Shown piece after piece: positions 9,010-37,445 of a stretch of DNA of 37,770 nt; positions within the stretch are counted from its first letter, which is position 1; every line of letters begins with the position of its first letter. Source of the DNA: a virus. The position numbers were made by a program, and so were the translations under genes. The notes below the pieces were generated by a model that was not told the origin of the DNA, did no database searches, and saw nothing but the letters and a program-made list of their open reading frames with translations. The DNA lies in the UHGV virus genome UHGV-1359486. The stretch is one strand, 5' to 3'.

Positions 9010-9471
9010 TTATCTCCGCTGATTACCGAGGAATTCGGTTAATTCTTCACGCGTTGCTGAGTAGAAAGTGACGTCATCAACGCCTTTGAAATACTTTCTG
9101 ATGGTGCCAACACGGCCAAGTCCGATACTTGCGCAGTACATCTGGCCGTGCCGGAATTTACGCGCTGCAAATGATGTCACGCACTGGACGTAAGTTGATG
9201 AGAGGATGAGCTGCCAGAATGCCAGGCCGATATCCTTGCTGAACCCCCTGACCTCTGGTAGGTACATAGCATGACACTCGAACGTCATCGGCTGCACTTC
9301 TTCGTAATACACGATGCCGCCGAACTGCCCGTGCACGTCAACCTCAAAATGTCTGCGTTCCGGTTTATAATCGAACCCGTCCCCGTTGTTACTCCCGGCA
9401 ATAATGTCAGGGTGGTTACCAACGGCCTCAATCAGGTCGATATTCCTCGTTGGTTTGAATGTGATCATCAT
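9010..9471 (-). CDS. P22 gp14-like virion assembly/ejection-associated protein
   Basis: 153 aa; position between tail needle and gp7; ATGA overlap with upstream gene. Confidence 0.65.
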
Positions 9472-10334
9472 TGCTCCGCAATAATTTTTATGGTCGTGGC
9501 GGTGAACGCAGCGCCATTTGCCTGAATAGTTAGCGTGCTGCCGTTTGTGGCAAGGAAGCCGCCTTTATCTACGCTGAAGAATGTCGCCAGGAGAATATTA
9601 TCCGTAGTGGTAGCTACGTTTCTGCTAGCGACCAACGTGTCAGGTACAGCGCCGGAGAAAGTTAGCTGCATAGACCGGTTTGTAGTACCTCCAGGATAAC
9701 TACCGATAAGTGCCAATTTGAAATTGAGCGTTTTGCTCTCGTTAAAAACGACCATCTTATTGTTAATGGTGTCAAAAAACGGAGCCAGAGTACCTGATGT
9801 CGGAGTAAGTGACTTAAGCATGGTAACTAGGTTAGTCGGCGTCGTTGGTATTACCTGTGATATGCCGGTATAAACAACCTCTGATTTCTTGCGTGTCGTG
9901 GCATACTCAAGAGCTGCAATCCTACCTTCATGGCTTACCAGTGCCGCTTCATTAGCGGTTATGCGCGTTTCGTGGTCATCCAATTCAGCTTCAATGTCGA
10001 TAACCTTATCCAGAAGGTAATCTACATCATCGCGCAGTATGTCGATCTTCCCTTCTGCTGTTGTCAGTCGTACATCAAGAAGCTGAATTGCATTGGTGTT
10101 AGCGGTAATCCTACCTTCATGGTCTGCGAGCACTACATCCTGCTCATCATTTTTAACCTGCGCATCATATGCCCCCTGACCTGCCTCATTTGCTTTTCCT
10201 GTCACTCTGGTGAAGTCCAGTGACTGAGACAGCACATACATCCGGTAAGCAGGAGAAAACACGACAGGGAGAGACGCAGCATTAATTCCGACCGCAGTCA
10301 CTGCGATGGGGTCTTTTAAACTTTCATCAGCCAT
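9468..10334 (-). CDS. Tail needle (P22 gp26-like) with extended C-terminal knob domain
   Basis: N-terminal [22 protein letters not shown]...ADHE..RI coiled-coil as in P22 gp26; 288 aa versus about 233 in P22. Confidence 0.85.
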
Positions 10335-12221: not shown

Positions 12222-12429
12222 CTTTCACCGCCTTTTTTCGCTGGGTGCGCGGTTTCTTTTCTGGCTCTGGCTCTGGCTCTGGCTCTGTCAAAGTTTGAGT
12301 GTCTTCCGGGTGCATATACCATCCAGCATCGAGATAATTTTCAATTTCATCATCTTCAACCGTGATGATTTGCAGTTTCATGCCCCAGATTTTTACATTG
12401 CCATTGGCTTTATAAAGCATCGTGCTCAT
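12199..12429 (-). CDS. Small protein (76 aa) with EPEPEPEPE repeat between coat and gp4
   Basis: ATG at 12427-12429 with GGAGAT upstream; track ORF 12199..12612 extended by alternative start; contains the (GGCTCT)4 repeat. Confidence 0.45.
12261..12286. repeat. Perfect hexanucleotide tandem repeat (GGCTCT)x4
   Basis: Read directly; encodes Glu-Pro repeats on the minus strand. Confidence 0.9.
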
Positions 12430-28661: not shown

Positions 28662-28724
28662 ATACAGTTTTATCTGTATTTAATAACAGATACACCTGTT
28701 TGTCAAATACAGTTTTTATTGTGA
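28662..28724. promoter_or_regulatory. OR operator region: three 18-bp sites (28662-28679 ATACAGTTTTATCTGTAT; 28684-28701; 28707-28724) with PR (-35 TTGACA, -10 TTAAAT on minus strand)
   Basis: Inverted-repeat half-sites ACAG/CTGT read directly between cro and cI. Confidence 0.7.
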
Positions 28725-28752: not shown

Positions 28753-29385
28753 ATGAGTCTTGCCAGCAGAGTAAAAAGTCGTCGCCTTGCGCTCGAAATG
28801 ACACAAACAGAGGCAGCAGAAAAAGCAGGAATTAAACAGCAGTCGTGGGCGTCTATTGAAGATGGTAAGACTGTTAAACCTCGTAATATAATTGCGATTG
28901 GCGCTGCATTGCAGTGCGACCCAGGGTGGCTGATGACGGGAGATAATATTCAGCCAATCAGCGAGGTAAATACACGGAAGATACCTCTAATTAGTTACGT
29001 ACAGGCGGGAAACTTGGCTGAAAGCATACCGATCAGTGATTGTGACGGGTCTTTTGAGTACGTTCTTACCGATCAGGACTTATCTCATAATGCGTTCGCC
29101 CTTCGTATTGAAGGTGATTCAATGGAGCCTGATTTTAAAACCGGCGATGTAGTGATTATCGATCCTGAGATAGAGCCGCATCCAGGTGAGTTTGTTGTCG
29201 CGTCTAATGGCGAGCAAGAGGCAACATTCAAGAAATACAGGCCTACCCATGTCATGATTAATGGTGACCAGCACTACGAGTTAGTCCCACTCAATGACGA
29301 CTATCCAGTGCTCGATAGCGAGAAAATCAATCTCCGGATAATCGGTACAATGGTAGAGCACCGAATTTACCGAAGAAAAAGGTAA
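28753..29385 (+). CDS. cI: CI-type repressor (HTH + S24 LexA-like autopeptidase domain)
   Basis: 210 aa; N-terminal HTH; GDSMEP (Ser) and FKKY (Lys) catalytic dyad context. Confidence 0.9.
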   Translation: MSLASRVKSRRLALEMTQTEAAEKAGIKQQSWASIEDGKTVKPRNIIAIGAALQCDPGWLMTGDNIQPISEVNTRKIPLISYVQAGNLAESIPISDCDGSFEYVLTDQDLSHNAFALRIEGDSMEPDFKTGDVVIIDPEIEPHPGEFVVASNGEQEATFKKYRPTHVMINGDQHYELVPLNDDYPVLDSEKINLRIIGTMVEHRIYRRKR

Positions 29386-29422: not shown

Positions 29423-29471
29423 GTATCTAAATTCCAATGAAAATCACCCGATTACAGTTTCATCGATAAAA

Positions 29472-29515
29472 ATACAGTTTTACCTGTTGACCAAATACAG
29501 TTTTACCTGTATCTT
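29472..29515 (+). promoter_or_regulatory. OL/PL: two operator sites (29472-29489, 29495-29512) overlapping -35 TTGACC and -10 TATCTT
   Basis: Same 18-bp operator family as OR (ATACAGTTTTACCTGT). Confidence 0.65.
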
Positions 29516-29600: not shown

Positions 29601-29842
29601 CCACTGAGTGGTTTTTGGGATTGGTGAATGCCGGGTGCTGACCGGCAAGTGTAAGACCTAATGGGTGGTAGATATCGCTGGCTGTAGTCGGTTGAGTAAG
29701 CGCGTTGCAAGCCAGCACCGACCCAATAAACGACATGCGAAACCTTCGCCCCGGTGAAACTCCGGTGTCAACTAGCATGGCGCATAGACAAGCAGGAAAT
29801 CAGCACCTGCCACCAATCACCAAAAATTACTCAGGAGGCAAT

Positions 29843-30142
29843 ATGGCAACAATTACTGTTATTCCAAAGAAAGACAACGCGAAGAGCCGCCGGCTAGCAA
29901 AGCAAATGGCGTTCTGGGACAGAAAGCGTGAGGAGTATGCAGCGATGCCTAAAAGCCGCTCAGTGGAGGAGATTTTTGATTCAGTATTTGCGCCAGCGAA
30001 AGAAGAACGTCCGGCGCTGACACTGAAACCAACACAGTATTACCCGTCCGGTGATAACTGCTGCCTGCCTAAAGTGGCAATTTTCAGCGGGGTTAAGGTC
30101 AAGCAGCCGAAAGGTGATTTCGGGATTACAGTGCGAGCATAA
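29843..30142 (+). CDS. N-like antiterminator (99 aa)
   Basis: AGGAGG RBS; N-terminal Arg-rich motif KSRRLAKQMAFWDRKRE resembling lambda N ARM; first gene after PL/nutL. Confidence 0.6.
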   Translation: MATITVIPKKDNAKSRRLAKQMAFWDRKREEYAAMPKSRSVEEIFDSVFAPAKEERPALTLKPTQYYPSGDNCCLPKVAIFSGVKVKQPKGDFGITVRA

Positions 30143-31764: not shown

Positions 31765-31991
31765 ACGCATACGCAGCACAGGATGCTCAGGAAGAGCGAC
31801 GGCTGGAGCATGCAGCATGGCAGGATGCCGTGGACATGGAAGTTAGCGAACTGGCAACGGATGCTTTTAATAAACTCCCTCAGCGCCTTCTGGATGAAGT
31901 AAGCGAGGACCTGCAAGAGGCGATATGGAAATCACTTTTTGACGTTATTGGCAATATCAGGAGTTCGTATGCAGCCAGGTATCTACGATGA
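31761..31991 (+). CDS. Acidic helical protein (76 aa) immediately upstream of the recombination nuclease
   Basis: AGGAGG RBS; acidic composition. Confidence 0.5.
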   Translation: MNAYAAQDAQEERRLEHAAWQDAVDMEVSELATDAFNKLPQRLLDEVSEDLQEAIWKSLFDVIGNIRSSYAARYLR

Positions 31992-32787
31992 CATCAGCAA
32001 TGATGACTATCACAACGGCCCCGGGATAAGTAAATCGCAGCTGGACCTTATCGAACAATCACCGGCTGACTTTATCTGGCAACGGAATGCCCCGGTGGAT
32101 GAGGAAAAAATAAAGGCTCTGGATTTCGGGACCGCTGTTCACTGCCTTTTGCTTGAGCCTGATGAGTTCAATAACCGGTACAGGATAGGGCCGGAAGTAA
32201 ACAGACGCACATCCGCAGGGAAGCAGGAAGAAAAGGAATTCTTCGAAATGTGCGAAAAAGAAGGAATCACGCCAATCACCCATGACGACAACAGGAAGTT
32301 GATGATCATGCGGGATAGTGCCATGGCCCACCCTATCGCCAAATGGTGCCTTGAAGCTGAAGGAAAAGCCGAGAGCAGCATTTACTGGAATGACAAGGAA
32401 ACGGACATTCTTTGCCGGTGCAGGCCGGACAAACTGATAGGACAACACGGATGGATTGTCGATGTGAAAAGCACCGCGGACATGTCCCGCTTCGAACGCG
32501 CTTTTTACGATATGCGCTATCACGTTCAGGACGCGTTTTACTCAGACGGATATAAGGACCTGTCCGGAGAGTTACCGGTGTTCGTATTTCTCGCGGTCAG
32601 CACAACAATCGACTGCGGAAGATATCCGGTCCGTGTATTCATTATGGATGATGTGGCAAAGGATGCCGGACGGTCCGCATACAAACAAAATCTCAGAACA
32701 TACACCGAGTGCATTAAAACGGATGAATGGCCCGGTCTGAGAACACTATCACTGCCACGCTACGCAAAGGAACTGAGAAATGAGTAA
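31969..32787 (+). CDS. RecE-type exonuclease (nuclease domain only; PD-(D/E)XK)
   Basis: GIYDDISNDDYHNGPGISKSQL, SSIYWND, CRCRPDKL, GWIVDVKSTAD, YHVQDAFYSDGY match the C-terminal nuclease domain of E. coli RecE as recalled. Confidence 0.8.
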   Translation: MQPGIYDDISNDDYHNGPGISKSQLDLIEQSPADFIWQRNAPVDEEKIKALDFGTAVHCLLLEPDEFNNRYRIGPEVNRRTSAGKQEEKEFFEMCEKEGITPITHDDNRKLMIMRDSAMAHPIAKWCLEAEGKAESSIYWNDKETDILCRCRPDKLIGQHGWIVDVKSTADMSRFERAFYDMRYHVQDAFYSDGYKDLSGELPVFVFLAVSTTIDCGRYPVRVFIMDDVAKDAGRSAYKQNLRTYTECIKTDEWPGLRTLSLPRYAKELRNE

Positions 32788-33589
32788 CCCACCAATCGCA
32801 CAGGCGGACCTGCAAAAAGCACAAGGGACCGCGGTTAAAGAAAAAACAAAAGACCAGCAGCTAATCCAGTTCATAAACCAGCCAGGCATGAAAGCTCAAC
32901 TAGCAGCCGCCCTGCCGAGGCATATAACACCGGACCGCATGATCAGGATTGTCACCACCGAGATACGGAAAACTCCATCACTGGCAACCTGTGACATGCA
33001 AAGCTTTATCGGCGCTGTTGTTCAGTGCTCGCAACTTGGCCTTGAGCCAGGTAACGCATTGGGCCACGCCTACCTCCTTCCGTTCGGCAATGGTAAAGCG
33101 GCATCAGGGCAATCAAATATTCAGTTAATTATCGGATATCGCGGCATGATCGACCTCGCCCGCCGATCCGGTCAAATTATCAGTATATCGGCCCGCACTG
33201 TGCGCGAAGGTGACAGTTTTCATTTTGAATATGGCTTAAACGAGGACCTTACACACGTACCCGGCGAAAATGACTCGGGCCCAATCACCCACGTTTATGC
33301 AGTGGCCCGCCTGAAAGAAGGTGGTGTTCAGTTTGAGGTTATGTCTTTCTCTCAGATTGAGAAGGTCCGCGATTCAAGCAAGGCCGGTAAAAATGGTCCA
33401 TGGGTATCTCACTGGGAAGAAATGGCGAAAAAGACCGTCATCCGCCGCCTGTTCAAATATCTGCCGGTATCTATCGAGATGCAGAGGGCCGTCATTCTGG
33501 ATGAAAAAGCAGAGGCCAACGTGGACCAGGAGCATGCATCTATTTTTGAAGGTGAGTACGAAACTGTATCGCCGGAATCCGCGGGGTAA
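32780..33589 (+). CDS. recT: RecT-family single-strand annealing protein
   Basis: 269 aa; LLPFG, IGYRGMIDLARRSG motifs; coupled downstream of the nuclease. Confidence 0.85.
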   Translation: MSNPPIAQADLQKAQGTAVKEKTKDQQLIQFINQPGMKAQLAAALPRHITPDRMIRIVTTEIRKTPSLATCDMQSFIGAVVQCSQLGLEPGNALGHAYLLPFGNGKAASGQSNIQLIIGYRGMIDLARRSGQIISISARTVREGDSFHFEYGLNEDLTHVPGENDSGPITHVYAVARLKEGGVQFEVMSFSQIEKVRDSSKAGKNGPWVSHWEEMAKKTVIRRLFKYLPVSIEMQRAVILDEKAEANVDQEHASIFEGEYETVSPESAG

Positions 33590-33591
33590 TT

Positions 33592-33852
33592 ATGGGCGAC
33601 ATGGGCGATATATTCCGCGCAATGCGTGAAGATGCCAAAGAACGTAAGCAGCAGCGATTAAAAGAAAATACAGGGAAGTTATCAGGAATTGATATTCCGT
33701 TTACAAAGGATGGAAGCGGAACAATTCATTTTTCAACACCAGCCGGAAAAGTTCTGTTTTACCCCACCACAAATAAAATTCAGCACAAGCAAAAGGTCAC
33801 ACGCGGCAATCTGGAAAAGGCTGTCTCGCTGGCTAAAAGTCTTGGTGCATAA
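33592..33852 (+). CDS. Hypothetical protein (86 aa)
   Basis: ORF with ATG. Confidence 0.5.
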   Translation: MGDMGDIFRAMREDAKERKQQRLKENTGKLSGIDIPFTKDGSGTIHFSTPAGKVLFYPTTNKIQHKQKVTRGNLEKAVSLAKSLGA

Positions 33853-33859
33853 CCCCACC

Positions 33860-33878
33860 GTTTCAGGATGAAGCGTAA
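33860..33878. repeat. 19-bp direct repeat GTTTCAGGATGAAGCGTAA, copy 1
   Basis: Identical copy at 34129-34147. Confidence 0.9.
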
Positions 33879-34140
33879 GCCAGAGGAAACAATCATGTGC
33901 ATACAGGAAATGAATGTACGGGTTTACTTTGCCCCTACCAGAAACCGCCGGTATTTCAGCAAGGATGCTGCGATAAAGGCAGAGGTAAAGGCGCGAATAT
34001 TCATGAAATACCCGTTTGAGAGGCCCGAATCCGATACGGGATATCCGGGATATTACATATCAGAAGACAGGCCTGAATTTTATCGCAGAGCGGTGAGATA
34101 TCTGACCTATCTGATTAAAAAGCAAATGGTTTCAGGATGA
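33868..34140 (+). CDS. Hypothetical protein (90 aa; alternative start ATG 33896) flanked by 19-bp direct repeats
   Basis: ORF begins and ends inside the two repeat copies. Confidence 0.45.
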   Translation: MKRKPEETIMCIQEMNVRVYFAPTRNRRYFSKDAAIKAEVKARIFMKYPFERPESDTGYPGYYISEDRPEFYRRAVRYLTYLIKKQMVSG

Positions 34141-34147
34141 AGCGTAA
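34129..34147. repeat. 19-bp direct repeat GTTTCAGGATGAAGCGTAA, copy 2
   Basis: Identical to 33860-33878. Confidence 0.9.
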
Positions 34148-34171
34148 TGCAGGGATGCTGAGGAAATAACA

Positions 34172-34963
34172 ATGACTGCTTACTATAACGAAATCGACCC
34201 GTTCGCTGCTCAGTGGTTACGGAATCTCATTGCTGCCGGCCATATAGCGCCGGGTGTAGTGGACGAAAGGAGTATTGAAGATGTCACACCAGATGATTTA
34301 CGCGGATTCACACAATGCCACTTCTTCGCCGGTATCGGGGTGTGGTCACTCGCACTGCGCCGTGCAGGATGGCCGGATGATAAACAAGTCTGGTCAGGAA
34401 GTTGTCCGTGCCAGCCTTTCAGCGCGGCAGGCAAAGGAAATGGGTTTGCTGACGAGCGGCACCTTTGGCCTGCATTCTTCCACCTCATCAGCGAGTGCAA
34501 ACCTGGCGTTATCTTTGGTGAACAGGTTGCAAGCAAAGACGGCCTCGGGTGGCTCGACCTTGTTCAAACTGACTTGGAAGCAACGAACTACGCCGTCGCC
34601 GCGGTCGATTTATGCGCTGCGGGCTTCGGTGCGCCGCATATCAGACAGCGATTGTTCTGGGTGGGCAACGCCAACAACCAGGGAATGGAAGGAATGCGGG
34701 GATGTGAGTCAGTCATTCTTCCGGAAGGACGGGAAGATGCGAAACGACACGCTATACCGCCAGCTATGGCTGCACATGTTTGGGATGGATGGCAGGCCGT
34801 CACGGGAGCAGATAAAAAATCTCGAATGCTGCCACCTGACTTTGGCGAGAGAACTGATGATGCTGCCGGTAGAGTTGGAAAACTCCGCGCCTACGGAAAT
34901 GCCATCGTCGCGCCGGTCGCGGAAGAATTTATAAGGGCTTATATGCTGATAACAGAGGAATGA
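34172..34963 (+). CDS. DNA (cytosine-5)-methyltransferase-like protein, orphan, short target-recognition region
   Basis: 263 aa; motif I FFAGIGV, motif IV SCPCQPFSAAGK, ENV-like FGEQV, QRL, motif X YGNAIV; no adjacent nuclease gene. Confidence 0.6.
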   Translation: MTAYYNEIDPFAAQWLRNLIAAGHIAPGVVDERSIEDVTPDDLRGFTQCHFFAGIGVWSLALRRAGWPDDKQVWSGSCPCQPFSAAGKGNGFADERHLWPAFFHLISECKPGVIFGEQVASKDGLGWLDLVQTDLEATNYAVAAVDLCAAGFGAPHIRQRLFWVGNANNQGMEGMRGCESVILPEGREDAKRHAIPPAMAAHVWDGWQAVTGADKKSRMLPPDFGERTDDAAGRVGKLRAYGNAIVAPVAEEFIRAYMLITEE

Positions 34964-34968
34964 ATATG
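34953..34968. repeat. 16-bp direct repeat CAGAGGAATGAATATG, copy 1 (second copy 35240-35255)
   Basis: Read directly; each copy supplies RBS and MNM start of the following gene. Confidence 0.9.
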
Positions 34969-35232
34969 TCGCGGCCAATCGACTTAATAGCAGATATCAC
35001 GGATGAGTATATCGCTAGGCATTTTGAAGGGACGAACTACGGGCACACCAACTATCGGGACATCGTTGGCAAAGGATGTCTGAATGCTATGGCCGGATAT
35101 CACAACGGATATACCACACAGTGCATATTGATAAAAATGGGGCTGACCACAGAGAAATTACGGCTGACAAAGCGCGGTCGTGAATTTCTGTTCTGGCATT
35201 TTAACTATCAACCGGTTAATGGGCGGAAATAA
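34960..35232 (+). CDS. Hypothetical protein (90 aa)
   Basis: ATGA-coupled to methyltransferase. Confidence 0.5.
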   Translation: MNMSRPIDLIADITDEYIARHFEGTNYGHTNYRDIVGKGCLNAMAGYHNGYTTQCILIKMGLTTEKLRLTKRGREFLFWHFNYQPVNGRK

Positions 35233-35239
35233 TTCATCG

Positions 35240-35255
35240 CAGAGGAATGAATATG
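35240..35255. repeat. 16-bp direct repeat CAGAGGAATGAATATG, copy 2
   Basis: Identical to 34953-34968. Confidence 0.9.
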
Positions 35256-35537
35256 GCAATAGTTCAGTATTACGTTGCGTGTAAAAAAGATGAAGACCCG
35301 GCATCCGTCACTGAGATTTTTCGCTGTGAATTATCAGACGACCATAATTTCAGTGCTGATGATGACGACTTCGAATTTTGTATAGAAACATGCGCAGAAG
35401 ATTTTCACGACAGATGCGACGGGTGGGAGCGTCATTGGCCTTTATTATTCATGCTGTGGATTGATGGGAAATATATCGGCATGTTTGAAGTTGAACGCGA
35501 ATATGAGCCAACATTTTCAGCCAACAAAGTTAATTAA
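35247..35537 (+). CDS. Acidic hypothetical protein (96 aa)
   Basis: D/E-rich (SDDHNFSADDDDFEF). Confidence 0.5.
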   Translation: MNMAIVQYYVACKKDEDPASVTEIFRCELSDDHNFSADDDDFEFCIETCAEDFHDRCDGWERHWPLLFMLWIDGKYIGMFEVEREYEPTFSANKVN

Positions 35538-35555
35538 GCAGATTCAGGAGGGGTG

Positions 35556-35849
35556 ATGGATAGTAATAATATAGAATTTTTACAGCCAGATGATTTAAAT
35601 AATCTGAAACGGTTCAATGAAAATTGCGAAGATAGTCAAGATTACGACGTACCAAAAGAAAAAATGCACCGCATGGCTAAATTGGGAGTTGTGCGTCGTC
35701 ACAGTAGAAACTATTACAGCATAACATCATTCGGAATGTATTTACTTAATCAAGGTGACGAACTATATAAATTGCCACTTAAAACGCAGTCTGATTACGA
35801 TGCAGAATTCCGATTTAATTTAGCCAATAAAATTCGAGGCTCATCATGA
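35556..35849 (+). CDS. Hypothetical protein (97 aa from ATG; track starts at GTG 35553)
   Basis: AGGAGG RBS; AT-rich. Confidence 0.5.
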   Translation: MDSNNIEFLQPDDLNNLKRFNENCEDSQDYDVPKEKMHRMAKLGVVRRHSRNYYSITSFGMYLLNQGDELYKLPLKTQSDYDAEFRFNLANKIRGSS

Positions 35850-36139
35850 TGGGTATATCACGACAGCAGTTTGAGGAATACATTAAATTGCATACCGACT
35901 CAGCAGGGCTGGAGCTGAAATTAAAAAAAGCAAATAACGGATTAAATTACGCTAACCGGGATGTCGATTTAATGTGGATTGGCTGGCAGGCATCGCGTGA
36001 AATCTTAACTGTTGAATTGCCTTTATCTCTTCACGTAAGAGCCTATGACTATTACACGGACGGCTATAACAGTGGCGTGGATTACTGTGAAGTTATATTG
36101 GAATCTGCGGGAATAAAAGTAATAAGAACCGACCAATAA
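35846..36139 (+). CDS. Hypothetical protein (97 aa)
   Basis: ATGA coupling. Confidence 0.5.
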   Translation: MMGISRQQFEEYIKLHTDSAGLELKLKKANNGLNYANRDVDLMWIGWQASREILTVELPLSLHVRAYDYYTDGYNSGVDYCEVILESAGIKVIRTDQ

Positions 36140-36306
36140 AATCATCGGGGAATAACAATGACAATCGGATTTGTATTACTACTGGTAATGCACGGTGCTG
36201 CTGTGCCTGTTACCGATGATATTTATACGCTCGAGGAATGTGAGAGCCGCGCAGTGCAGGTAATGGCTGTGCGGAATGTTGAATTAGTGTGTGCGGAGGT
36301 TTTCAG

Positions 36307-36675
36307 ATGAGACAAATTAAAATAAGCTCTGGCGCGTGGCAAAAAGATTTAGAAATGGTTGTCACTGTTATCGATGAAGATAAATTTAAAACTCAGTGTG
36401 AGCAAGTTAATAAATTTTATTGTGACGCAGAGTATAGAGCTAAGAAACACGGAAGCCATGAAAAAGCGGGGTTCGCCATGTTCTGCGCTGAGTGTTTTCA
36501 ACAAATGGCATTCAATAACTTTAAAGACGAAGAATGGCTGACTGAGCAATTCGACTGGTCTAAAGATAAAGGAATTGAAGGGTATCCTTCGTTAGATGAT
36601 ATGGGCATTCGAATCGATGAAATTGAGCCATGGTTTATTGATTACGACGAAATGGAAATTACAGGATGGTGTTAA
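36307..36675 (+). CDS. Hypothetical protein (122 aa from ATG; track 36289)
   Basis: GGAGG RBS 8 nt upstream. Confidence 0.5.
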   Translation: MRQIKISSGAWQKDLEMVVTVIDEDKFKTQCEQVNKFYCDAEYRAKKHGSHEKAGFAMFCAECFQQMAFNNFKDEEWLTEQFDWSKDKGIEGYPSLDDMGIRIDEIEPWFIDYDEMEITGWC

Positions 36676-37235: not shown

Positions 37236-37445
37236 ATGACACCACAGGAAGCAGAGAACGGACGCAGACGAATAGCAAGGGAATGCCTGAAGGAATTAAT
37301 GCAGTACACATCAGACGAACAACACACCGCAATACTCGACAAATACACACCGAAATTCAAACCACTTAATCACCTGCGCTTTCCGGCAAAGAGAGTGCTC
37401 GGGTATTACGTGCGTACGTTACAGAAGGAGATGAAGGATGGATAA
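37236..37445 (+). CDS. Hypothetical protein (69 aa)
   Basis: ORF ends overlapping xis start. Confidence 0.45.
   Translation: MTPQEAENGRRRIARECLKELMQYTSDEQHTAILDKYTPKFKPLNHLRFPAKRVLGYYVRTLQKEMKDG

What the first reader, a model, noticed from the sequence alone, without database searches (positions are those of the whole stretch)
33860..35255. Accessory genes are bracketed by perfect direct repeats of their own junction sequence
GTTTCAGGATGAAGCGTAA occurs at 33860-33878 and 34129-34147, bracketing the 90-aa gene 33868-34140. CAGAGGAATGAATATG occurs at 34953-34968 and 35240-35255, bracketing gene 34960-35232; both following genes start MNM. Such duplicated linker sequences are footprints of cassette insertion or swap by short-homology recombination.
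Basis: seen in the sequence. Interest (0 to 1): 0.55.

Follow-up and report, generated by a model that had tools for sequence, protein, structure and literature searches.

The report
Conserved linker brackets swappable prophage genes
The two perfect repeats are split copies of one 62-base linker shared by Morganella prophages, and related prophages gain, lose and swap small accessory genes exactly at it, which is a clean natural example of a long-proposed route to mosaic phage genomes.

Summary

**The repeats.** Both exact repeats exist at the stated coordinates: the 19-mer at 33860 and 34129, the 16-mer at 34953 and 35240. None of 200 simulated windows had any exact direct repeat of 16 nt or more within 500 nt.

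**What they are.** They are pieces of one 62-nt intergenic linker: TAACCCCACC-GTTTCAGGATGAAGCGTAA-TGCAGGG-ATGCTGA-TAA-CAGAGGAATGAATATG. It lies in the early-left operon of a P22-like Morganella prophage, just downstream of RecE-like exonuclease and RecT genes.

**How the window is built.** Three cassettes sit inside this linker, bracketed by direct repeats:
- ORF90a, 19 nt
- a C5 DNA methyltransferase, 7 nt
- ORF90b, 16 nt

Deleting each cassette plus one repeat copy in silico rebuilds the linker exactly. That exact 62-mer occurs in 8 related contigs.

**Comparative evidence.** Relatives lack ORF90a or ORF90b precisely at the repeats. The ORF90a cassette, with both brackets, sits between three different pairs of neighbours. 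The 44-nt linker core joins at least 9 upstream and at least 13 downstream gene types.

**Function.** The linker has stop codons in all three frames plus a ribosome-binding site and start codon. It shows no promoter, terminator or RNA fold.

**Mechanism.** The most likely mechanism is short-homology recombination between linker copies, possibly RecT-assisted. This step is inferred.

It is a new member of a known kind, namely conserved boundary sequences.

The parts
31939..32787 (+). RecE-like exonuclease (PD-(D/E)XK, exonuclease VIII type), a candidate catalyst of the exchanges.
   Evidence: Pfam DUF3799 4.8e-27 and PDDEXK_1; phrog_412 exonuclease VIII 3e-108.
32780..33589 (+). RecT single-strand annealing protein, a candidate catalyst. 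In some relatives the linker follows it directly.
   Evidence: Pfam RecT 1.8e-54. Upstream class 'RecT(ETVSPE)' occurs in 5 loci.
33592..33852 (+). gp86, the last gene before the linker in this window. It is one of at least 9 alternative upstream neighbours.
   Evidence: ORF list; upstream classes; no family hit.
33850..33878 (+). Left part of linker A: TAA stop, CCCCACC, then the 19-mer repeat copy 1 (33860-33878).
33879..34128 (+). The ORF90a cassette proper. It has its own leader with a ribosome-binding site (gccagaGGAAacaatc). The coding sequence probably starts at 33895, and the protein's last residues (VSG, stop at 34138-34140) are read from the linker.
   Evidence: phrog_21496 1.7e-19 aligns residues 10-87. 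The cassette with both brackets also occurs in L086 and L095, between different neighbours.
34129..34161 (+). Right part of linker A: 19-mer repeat copy 2 (34129-34147), then TGCAGGGATGCTGA. ATGCTGA at 34155-34161 is the left bracket of the methyltransferase cassette.
34162..34949 (+). C5 cytosine DNA methyltransferase cassette (CDS 34172-34963). Its right bracket ATGCTGA lies at 34943-34949, and its last codons LITEE plus the stop lie in the linker.
   Evidence: Pfam DNA_methylase 1.2e-16 and phrog_363 4e-86. The joints are the same in all methyltransferase-bearing loci while the downstream genes differ. Homologues outside this group have other C-termini.
34950..34968 (+). Linker B: TAA, then 16-mer repeat copy 1 (34953-34968). 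It holds the TGA stop of the methyltransferase, GAGG as ribosome-binding site, and the ATG at 34966.
34966..35239 (+). ORF90b cassette: probable CDS 34966-35232, followed by the spacer ttcatcg.
   Evidence: phrog_18088 1.6e-17. It is absent exactly here in L101, L011 and L097. Its 3' junction varies among relatives.
35240..35255 (+). 16-mer repeat copy 2, the ribosome-binding site and start region of gp96.
35253..35537 (+). gp96, the downstream neighbour. Adjacency of the methyltransferase, a B-type linker and gp96 looks ancestral.
   Evidence: phrog_20438. L101, L097 and the distant L019 have the methyltransferase, a B-like linker, then a gp96 homologue. Proteus phage Pm34 has a B-like linker before a gp96 homologue.
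35532..35562 (+). A third shared linker, 'C' (AATTAAGCAGATTCAGGAGGGGTGATGGATA), at the next gene junction.
   Evidence: An unbiased k-mer screen found 17 occurrences between about 10 upstream and 10 downstream context classes. It precedes ORF90b in L093.

Best explanation
**What the repeats are.** The repeats are duplicated fragments of a single conserved 62-nt intergenic linker (a 'boundary sequence'). It marks the border between the recombination module (RecE-like exonuclease, RecT, SSB and others) and the variable accessory region. This is in the N-antiterminated early-left operon of lambdoid and P22-like prophages of Morganella.

**What the linker does.** It acts as a translational adaptor. 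It has stop codons in all three frames, so any gene reading into it terminates. It has a GAGG ribosome-binding site 7 nt before an ATG, so the next gene is translated. It also holds a 12-codon mini-ORF (MKRNAGMLITEE*) whose stop overlaps that start region.

**How the cassettes behave.** Accessory genes sit as cassettes inside the linker. Each carries linker sequence on both sides, so a cassette in one phage is flanked by homology to the linker of any other phage of the group. Recombination between linker copies then inserts, deletes or swaps cassettes. The partners could be co-infecting phages or co-resident prophages. The result is the bracketing direct repeats: 19, 7 and 16 nt in this window.

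**Shown.**
- The linker exists and its boundaries are sharp.
- Presence/absence falls exactly at the repeats.
- Cassettes move with fixed joints between different neighbours.
- No promoter, terminator, RNA fold or inverted repeat is present.

**Inferred.**
- The exchanges are homologous, using 44 nt of linker A and about 27-35 nt around linker B.
- The phage's own RecE/RecT pair promotes them.
- The linker is retained for its translational function.
- Each cassette's first joints arose by a rare illegitimate or microhomology event.
For: **The linker is real and shared.**
- The 19-mer is found in 39 IMG/VR contigs. It is single in 38 and double only in L086.
- Conservation is a sharp block from -11 to +32 around the 19-mer, falling to background on both sides across 41 unique contexts.
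- Linker identity is 92% between loci whose upstream 90 nt are 24% identical.
- There are at least 9 upstream classes and many downstream genes.

**Cassettes sit inside it.**
- Every cassette between A and B ends in a 7-13-nt duplicate of ...GCAGGGATGCTGA.
- In-silico excision of the three window cassettes gives the exact 62-mer, which is present in 8 loci.
- Gaps fall precisely at the repeats.
- The ORF90a cassette, with both brackets, occurs in 3 different contexts.
- Each window segment has a different best-matching locus.

**Opportunity for exchange.**
- The exact 19-mer is found only in Morganella genomes, up to 3 copies per genome.
- Nine IMG genomes carry two linker-bearing prophage contigs.
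- RecE-like and RecT genes lie immediately upstream.

**Linker features.** It has stops in all frames. It has no significant fold (z = -0.3), promoter, terminator or Rfam hit.

**Literature.** Rad52-type phage recombinases drive mosaic formation on short or diverged homology. The minimal efficient pairing segment is 23-27 bp for Redbeta and 31-34 bp for RecA (PMC3945230).
Against: - No experiment or direct trace shows that crossovers occur inside the linker. The pattern could partly reflect ancient events plus vertical descent.
- The bracketing repeats in the window (19, 16 and 7 nt) are shorter than the published minimal pairing lengths. They are footprints rather than efficient substrates; only the full linker (44 nt) is long enough.
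- Repeat lengths differ between cassettes. Each cassette's joints must therefore have originated by a non-homologous or microhomology event that homologous recombination does not explain.
- Loci were gathered by exact-match searches, so counts are biased towards conserved copies, and some contigs are near-duplicates.
- The mini-ORF has a poor ribosome-binding-site spacing, and its translation is untested.
Confidence: 0.7

Rival explanations
1. Illegitimate recombination plus selection only. Junctions form at random, without homology, and only those in harmless intergenic DNA survive. The linker is shared merely by descent and kept for its translation signals, not used as a recombination substrate.
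For: - Bracket lengths vary (7, 8, 10, 13, 16 and 19 nt) and each cassette joins the linker at its own position, as expected for one-off non-homologous joints.
- Some loci break out of the linker at odd points. Examples are L107 at GGGATG|ggcacg and Morganella phage IME1369_01, where the SSB stop is fused into the linker.
Against: - The same cassette, with identical joints, appears between different neighbours: ORF90a in 3 contexts and the methyltransferase before at least 6 downstream genes.
- The linker is 92% identical between contexts that are otherwise unrelated.
- Independent random events would not recreate identical joints. This model probably explains how cassettes are born, not how they spread.
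Confidence: 0.15
2. Deletion only. A long cassette array like the window's is ancestral, and relatives lost genes by slippage or recombination between the direct repeats. The repeats are then causes of loss rather than footprints of gain.
For: Direct repeats of 16-19 nt can mediate deletion. Relatives differ from the window by exactly one cassette plus one repeat copy.
Against: - It does not explain where the repeats came from, since parts of them encode the C-termini of unrelated proteins.
- It does not explain the combinatorial mix of at least 9 upstream and at least 13 downstream partners.
- It does not explain reversed cassette order: ORF90b before the MKITDED gene in L102 and L109, after it in L093.
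- Distant relatives already have the short arrangement. L019 has the methyltransferase, a B-like linker, then gp96. Proteus phage Pm34 has a B-like linker before a gp96 homologue.
Confidence: 0.07
3. The linker is a cis-acting regulatory or recognition site, for example a protein-binding site, an RNA processing site, or the target of a dedicated nuclease or recombinase. Its copies are kept or duplicated for that function.
For: The conserved block is long (44 nt) for a mere ribosome-binding-site region. It contains an internal near-repeat, CAGGATG / CAGGGATG (read directly from the sequence). An HNH endonuclease gene occurs in this region in one relative, L118.
Against: - There is no fold beyond shuffled controls (z = -0.3 and -1.5 on the two strands).
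- There is no promoter or terminator match, no Rfam hit and no inverted repeats.
- Within a gene class the linker is no better conserved than the neighbouring gene: 92.6% against 92.3%.
- No recombinase or nuclease is consistently linked to it.
Confidence: 0.06
4. The cassettes are small transposable or site-specifically integrating elements, and the repeats are target-site duplications.
For: Each cassette is flanked by direct repeats of the sequence at its insertion point.
Against: - Repeat length is not fixed (7-19 nt).
- There are no terminal inverted repeats.
- The cassettes encode only small proteins of unknown function or a methyltransferase, with no transposase or integrase.
Confidence: 0.02
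5. Chance, or convergence of ribosome-binding-site regions.
For: Part of the 16-mer (AGAGGA ... ATG) is constrained by translation signals. Similar sites (CCAGAGGAAACAATCATG, GCTGAGGAAATAACAATG) occur nearby.
Against: - None of 200 simulations had any exact repeat of 16 nt or more within 500 nt.
- The same sequences recur verbatim in dozens of related contigs.
- The repeats fit into one 62-mer.
Confidence: 0.01

Closest known systems
Short conserved boundary ('linker') sequences between modules of lambdoid phages. These were proposed by Susskind & Botstein 1978 and reported for the HK620/nin region by Clark et al. 2001, both as cited in PMC3029335. My recollection of the details in Clark et al. 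is from memory.
   Same: A short sequence sits at gene boundaries and is conserved between otherwise unrelated flanks. Mosaic breakpoints fall in it. The proposed mechanism is homologous recombination between copies. The setting is an early operon of temperate enterobacterial phages.
   Different: The sequence is specific to a different phage group (Morganella, with a diverged form in Proteus phages). One linker hosts three nested cassettes, each with partial duplications that reassemble into the intact linker. Its content is explicit: stops in three frames, a ribosome-binding site and start codon, and a mini-ORF.
PeSLs (promoter-early stem-loops) of T4-type phages (PMC2839356, PMC4122927).
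   Same: Small repeated motifs flank non-essential ORFs of unknown function in hyperplastic regions. Recombination between them is held responsible for insertions, deletions and replacements.
   Different: PeSLs are transcription units, a sigma-70 promoter plus a terminator hairpin. This linker has neither. It carries only translation signals, which fits a location inside a long antiterminated polycistronic operon. Mini-circles were not tested.
Morons of lambdoid phages (Hendrix and colleagues; from my own knowledge).
   Same: An extra, dispensable gene is present or absent between two genes that are adjacent in relatives.
   Different: Morons bring their own promoter and terminator and have no shared flanking linker. 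These cassettes have neither and rely on the operon's transcript.
Relaxed homologous recombination by Rad52-like phage recombinases (Redbeta, RecT, Erf) as a driver of mosaicism (PMC3945230, PMC2327257).
   Same: A RecE/RecT pair is encoded right next to the hotspot, and exchanges need only short homology.
   Different: Those experiments used hundreds of base pairs of diverged homology. Here the homology would be 27-44 bp of near-identity. No activity was measured here.
Integron gene cassettes.
   Same: Promoter-less single-gene cassettes are stacked in an array and expressed from an upstream promoter.
   Different: There are no attC-type inverted repeats, no integrase association and variable bracket length. 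The resemblance is in architecture only.

Membership tests
Conserved boundary/linker sequences mediating modular exchange (Susskind-Botstein, Clark et al.) | A short sequence conserved between genomes whose flanking sequences are unrelated. | tested here: met
   Linker identity is 92% against 24% for the upstream flank, in 598 between-class pairs. The conservation block is sharp, from -11 to +32.
Conserved boundary/linker sequences mediating modular exchange (Susskind-Botstein, Clark et al.) | Located at gene or module boundaries. | tested here: met
   It starts at the stop codon of the upstream gene and ends at the start codon of the next gene. It lies between the recombination module and the accessory region.
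Conserved boundary/linker sequences mediating modular exchange (Susskind-Botstein, Clark et al.) | Mosaic breakpoints and presence/absence differences coincide with it. | tested here: met
   Alignments A1 and A2. Each window segment has a different best-matching locus. Excision restores the 62-mer.
Conserved boundary/linker sequences mediating modular exchange (Susskind-Botstein, Clark et al.) | Recombination actually occurs within the linker. | not testable with these tools
   This needs crosses or deep sequencing of lysates. The only indirect support is cassettes with fixed joints in several contexts.
PeSL (T4-type promoter-early stem-loop) | A strong sigma-70-like early promoter in the motif. 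| tested here: not met
   No promoter-like site lies in or next to the linker copies. The count for the region is at the shuffled expectation.
PeSL (T4-type promoter-early stem-loop) | A stem-loop acting as a terminator. | tested here: not met
   The minimum free energy is -10 kcal/mol with z = -0.3. No terminator-like site lies at the linker.
PeSL (T4-type promoter-early stem-loop) | It flanks variable non-essential ORFs, and indels between relatives map to it. | tested here: met
Moron | The gene is flanked by its own promoter and terminator. | tested here: not met
   The only terminator-like hit nearby (35158-35183) lies inside ORF90b and is weak.
Transposable element with target-site duplication | Fixed-length duplication, terminal inverted repeats and a transposase. 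| tested here: not met
   Bracket lengths are 7-19 nt. There are no inverted repeats in 33000-36500. No transposase domains were found.
Integron cassette | An attC recombination site (imperfect inverted repeats) at the cassette end. | tested here: not met
   No inverted repeats and no significant fold.

The most novel reading that the evidence does not exclude
The linker may be more than a passive remnant. On this reading it is a selected gene-capture platform: a universal translational adaptor that makes any ORF landing in it expressible from the PL transcript. It has stops in all three frames, a relay mini-ORF ending 4 nt before the next start, and a ribosome-binding site with ATG. It would also be the preferred substrate of the adjacent RecE/RecT pair. 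Together these would work as a recombinase-light, integron-like cassette system in phage early operons. The three-fold nested insertion in this window would be its signature.
Probability: 0.15. Interest if true: 0.7.

Novelty: new member of a known kind. Interest (0 to 1): 0.45.

Why it matters
How phage genomes become mosaic is an old and unresolved argument. One side favours homologous exchange at short conserved linkers. The other favours random illegitimate joining followed by selection.

Reviews note that linker sequences cannot be found at most mosaic boundaries (PMC3029335). Here a linker is unambiguous and sharply bounded. It is shared by dozens of prophages, and its cassettes are caught in present, absent and swapped states. 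A RecE/RecT pair lies next door, and many strains carry two or three linker-bearing prophages.

That makes the question directly testable in a culturable host, Morganella morganii.

It also has a practical use for annotation. Start codons in this region are easily mis-called (the 'MNM' starts), and the linker marks where accessory genes of unknown function are exchanged.

Tried and rejected
- **Annotated collections.** Near-identity searches of the region against annotated phages and E. coli genomes found only the methyltransferase, with no close relative. Relatives had to be found by exact-pattern and protein-anchored scans of IMG/VR.
- **Structured RNA or regulatory element.** Rejected: folding is no better than shuffles, no promoter or terminator lies at the linker, and there is no Rfam hit.
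- **Transposon or target-site duplication.** Rejected: no inverted repeats, variable bracket length and no transposase.
- **Chance.** Rejected by simulation.
- **Hyper-conservation of the linker.** Not found. Within a gene class the linker is as conserved as the neighbouring gene. What is unusual is sharing across unrelated contexts.
- **Origin of the methyltransferase C-terminus (LITEE).** I tried to decide whether it comes from the linker or the reverse. Outgroup C-termini differ, but some resemble it (for example ...MEITE*), so this is unresolved.
- **Literature.** I found no paper describing this linker in Morganella phages. The library is incomplete, and Clark et al. 2001 could only be cited second-hand.
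Full report
**1. The observation**

Both repeats are real and exact. GTTTCAGGATGAAGCGTAA lies at 33860-33878 and 34129-34147. CAGAGGAATGAATATG lies at 34953-34968 and 35240-35255.

Apart from a hexanucleotide microsatellite, they are the longest and joint third-longest exact direct repeats in the window. In 200 first-order Markov simulations of the window, none contained any non-overlapping exact direct repeat of 16 nt or more within 500 nt; the real window has four. Shuffle expectations at up to 3 mismatches are 0.02 for the 19-mer and 0.40 for the 16-mer.

**2. Genomic setting**

The window is a P22-like prophage. Its structural genes are 74-78% identical to those of Salmonella, E. coli and Proteus P22-like phages.

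The region of interest lies in the early-left operon:
- CI-type repressor at 28753-29385
- 18-nt operator-like repeats at 29470 and 29493
- N-like antiterminator at 29843-30142 (a weak, sub-threshold Pfam match)
- RecE-like PD-(D/E)XK exonuclease at 31939-32787
- RecT at 32780-33589
- then a run of small genes

The bracketed genes are members of phage protein families of unknown function: phrog_21496 for ORF90a and phrog_18088 for ORF90b. A C5 cytosine methyltransferase lies between them.

Annotated phage and E. coli collections hold no close relative of this stretch. Only the methyltransferase matches.

**3. The repeats are pieces of one conserved linker**

An exact-match scan of IMG/VR found the 19-mer in 39 viral contigs. 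It occurs once in 38 of them and twice, 269 nt apart, only in L086.

Aligned on the 19-mer, 41 distinct contexts show a sharply bounded conserved block: ATAACCCCACC, the 19-mer, then TGCAGGGATGCTGA. It runs from offset -11 to +32. Column identity is 0.8-1.0 inside the block and drops to 0.25-0.45 immediately outside.

Between loci with different upstream genes, the upstream 90 nt are 24% identical, which is the random level. The 25 linker positions not fixed by the search are 92% identical.

At least nine unrelated upstream genes end at the linker:
- RecT itself
- two SSB-type tails
- gp86
- ORF90a
- four others

Many different genes follow it.

This gives a canonical 62-nt linker:

TAACCCCACC GTTTCAGGATGAAGCGTAA TGCAGGG ATGCTGA TAA CAGAGGAATGAATATG

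**4. Anatomy in the window**

Read against the canonical linker, the window is:

linker[1-29] | ORF90a cassette | linker[11-43] | methyltransferase cassette | linker[37-62] | ORF90b cassette | linker[47-62] | gp96

Three cassettes are therefore nested in one linker:

| Cassette | Bracketing direct repeat | Repeat copies |
|---|---|---|
| ORF90a | 19 nt | 33860-33878 and 34129-34147 |
| C5 methyltransferase | 7 nt (ATGCTGA) | 34155-34161 and 34943-34949 |
| ORF90b | 16 nt | 34953-34968 and 35240-35255 |

Joining 33850-33878, 34148-34161 and 34950-34968 reproduces the canonical 62-mer exactly. That 62-mer is present verbatim in 8 related loci with several different upstream genes.

**5. Presence and absence at the repeats**

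- L094 and L087 carry the window's upstream gene gp86 (95% identical). It is followed by a single linker with no ORF90a, a clean 269-bp gap.
- L101, L011 and L097 carry the methyltransferase, the 16-mer, then gp96, with no ORF90b. This is a clean 287-bp gap. The in-silico excised window junction matches L101 at 111 of 114 positions.
- More distant relatives show related short arrangements, so the short arrangement is probably the older one.
  - L019, whose methyltransferase is 57% identical, has the methyltransferase, a B-like linker, then a gp96 homologue.
  - The cultured Proteus phage vB_PvuS_Pm34 has a B-like linker before a gp96 homologue.

**6. Cassettes move with fixed joints**

- The ORF90a cassette, with both bracket copies, occurs between three different pairs of neighbours, in the window, L086 and L095. 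The left copy in L095 has one mismatch.
- The methyltransferase cassette always has the same left joint (...GATGCTGA|ggaaataacaATG) and right joint (tatATGCTGA|TAA...). It precedes at least six different downstream genes.
- Ten other small cassettes lie between linker halves A and B. Each ends in its own 7-13-nt duplicate of ...GCAGGGATGCTGA.
- Cassette order can be reversed. ORF90b lies before the MKITDED gene in L102 and L109, and after it in L093.
- Each window segment has a different best-matching locus: gp86 with L087, ORF90a with L086, the methyltransferase with L002/L118, ORF90b with L082/L035, and gp96 with L011/L101.
- An unbiased k-mer screen for short sequences shared between diverse flanks ranks linkers A and B top: 50 occurrences at 10 x 13 context classes, and 38 occurrences at 12 x 10. 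It also reveals a third linker, C, at window 35532-35562.

**7. What the linker contains**

- It has stop codons in all three frames, at linker positions 1 and 55; 20, 41 and 44; and 27.
- GAGG lies 7 nt before the last ATG.
- A 12-codon mini-ORF (MKRNAGMLITEE*) has a TGA stop that overlaps the start region.
- Several cassette proteins borrow their last residues from it: ORF90a ...VSG*, the methyltransferase ...LITEE*, and the L111 and L116 proteins ...AGMLITEE*.
- It has no fold beyond shuffled controls (z = -0.3; -1.5 on the reverse strand), no promoter- or terminator-like site and no Rfam match. The region has no inverted repeats.

This suits a site inside a long antiterminated polycistronic transcript, where only translation signals are needed between genes.

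The likely start codons are 33895, 34966 and 35253.

**8. Distribution**

Among one genome per species, the exact 19-mer occurs only in Morganella morganii and M. psychrotolerans, with up to three copies in one genome. Nine IMG genomes contribute two linker-bearing viral contigs each, so co-resident prophages can meet.

The 16-mer B also occurs in a second set of contigs with a different upstream gene. These are closest to Proteus phages. Proteus phage Pm34 has diverged A-like and B-like linkers after its RecT. Morganella phage IME1369_01 has the linker fused to its SSB stop codon and lacks the whole accessory block.

**9. Mechanism**

The best-supported reading is exchange by recombination between linker copies in different phage genomes.
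- A cassette flanked by 44 nt of A and about 27-35 nt around B can be moved by two crossovers.
- A single out-of-register crossover gives the bracketing repeats.

Published minimal efficient pairing lengths are 23-27 bp for Redbeta and 31-34 bp for RecA. RecT-type recombinases outperform RecA on short or diverged homology (PMC3945230). A RecE/RecT pair is encoded immediately upstream. Its involvement is an inference.

The variable bracket lengths show that each cassette's own joints were created once, by a non-homologous or microhomology event. 'Illegitimate birth, homologous spread' therefore fits best.

The other explanations considered fit less well. These are pure illegitimate recombination, deletion only, a regulatory site, a transposon, and chance. 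The reasons are given in the rivals section.

**10. Comparison with what is known**

This is the 'short conserved boundary sequence' idea of Susskind and Botstein and of Clark et al. (cited in PMC3029335). It is functionally parallel to the PeSL motifs of T4-type phages (PMC2839356, PMC4122927).

It fails the PeSL and moron definitions, because it has no promoter and no terminator. It also fails the transposon and integron definitions.

I found no description of this particular linker, but the library is incomplete.

**11. Verdict**

This is a new, unusually clean member of a known kind.

Interest is moderate. It is not surprising in principle, but it is a rare case where the linker is explicit. 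It offers a tractable system for the argument between homologous and illegitimate recombination.

**Caveats**
- Relatives were gathered by exact matching, so diverged copies are missed.
- Some contigs are near-duplicates.
- Host names for IMG/VR contigs were not available.
- No step of the recombination was observed directly.

Noticed in passing
window 35532-35562: A third shared linker, AATTAAGCAGATTCAGGAGGGGTGATGGATA, sits at the gp96/next-gene junction. It occurs 17 times in related loci, between about 10 upstream and 10 downstream context classes. In L093 it precedes the ORF90b homologue in place of linker B.
   Followed up: partly
window 29470-29510: An exact 18-nt direct repeat, AAATACAGTTTTACCTGT, is spaced 23 nt apart, with a partial third copy at 28704. 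It lies between the CI-like repressor (28753-29385) and the N-like gene (29843-30142). These are probably operator sites at PL.
   Followed up: partly
L118 2288-2716 (- strand): In one relative a 143-aa HNH endonuclease ORF (Pfam HNH_3, 1.3e-16) is inserted just after the fourth codon of the methyltransferase gene. This looks like a homing-endonuclease insertion.
   Followed up: partly
L001 7816-7846 (Morganella phage IME1369_01, KY653118.1 46201-46231): The SSB gene's stop codon is fused into linker A (ccgttttagGATGAAGCGTAATGCAGGGATG). The linker then joins directly to a homologue of the window's gene at about 37236-37445, so the whole accessory block is absent from this cultured phage.
   Followed up: partly
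L169 1480-1560 and 1730-1760 (Proteus phage vB_PvuS_Pm34, KY420199.1): Diverged versions of linker A follow RecT (TAACCCCCTACCCGTTTAAC...GCAAGGATGCAAACAGGAGG). A diverged linker B (GCAGGGATGCAATGAAGAGGAATGAATAATG) precedes a gp96 homologue. The linker system is therefore older than the Morganella phage group and also occurs in a phage classified in Hendrixvirinae.
   Followed up: partly
window 29800-29823: The start of a 54-nt sequence (TCAGCACCTGCCACCAATCACC...) is shared by 15 related loci between about 12 upstream and 7 downstream context classes. In the relatives it continues into a GC hairpin (CACCCCGCAGCGGGGATAAC) that the window lacks. It lies just upstream of the N-like gene and may be a nut or terminator region.
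   Followed up: no
window 12260-12281: A hexanucleotide tandem repeat (TCTGGC, about 3.7 copies) lies inside coding sequence on the minus strand.
   Followed up: no
window 9918-9933 and 10107-10122: An exact 16-nt direct repeat, AATCCTACCTTCATGG, occurs 189 nt apart inside the ORF at 9468-10334 (minus strand). It may reflect an internal protein repeat.
   Followed up: no
L082, L084, L089, L097, L101, L117 (methyltransferase ORFs): The methyltransferase between linkers A and B comes in length variants of 263, 296, 326 and 333 aa with identical ends. This implies internal insertions or deletions, perhaps in the target-recognition region.
   Followed up: no
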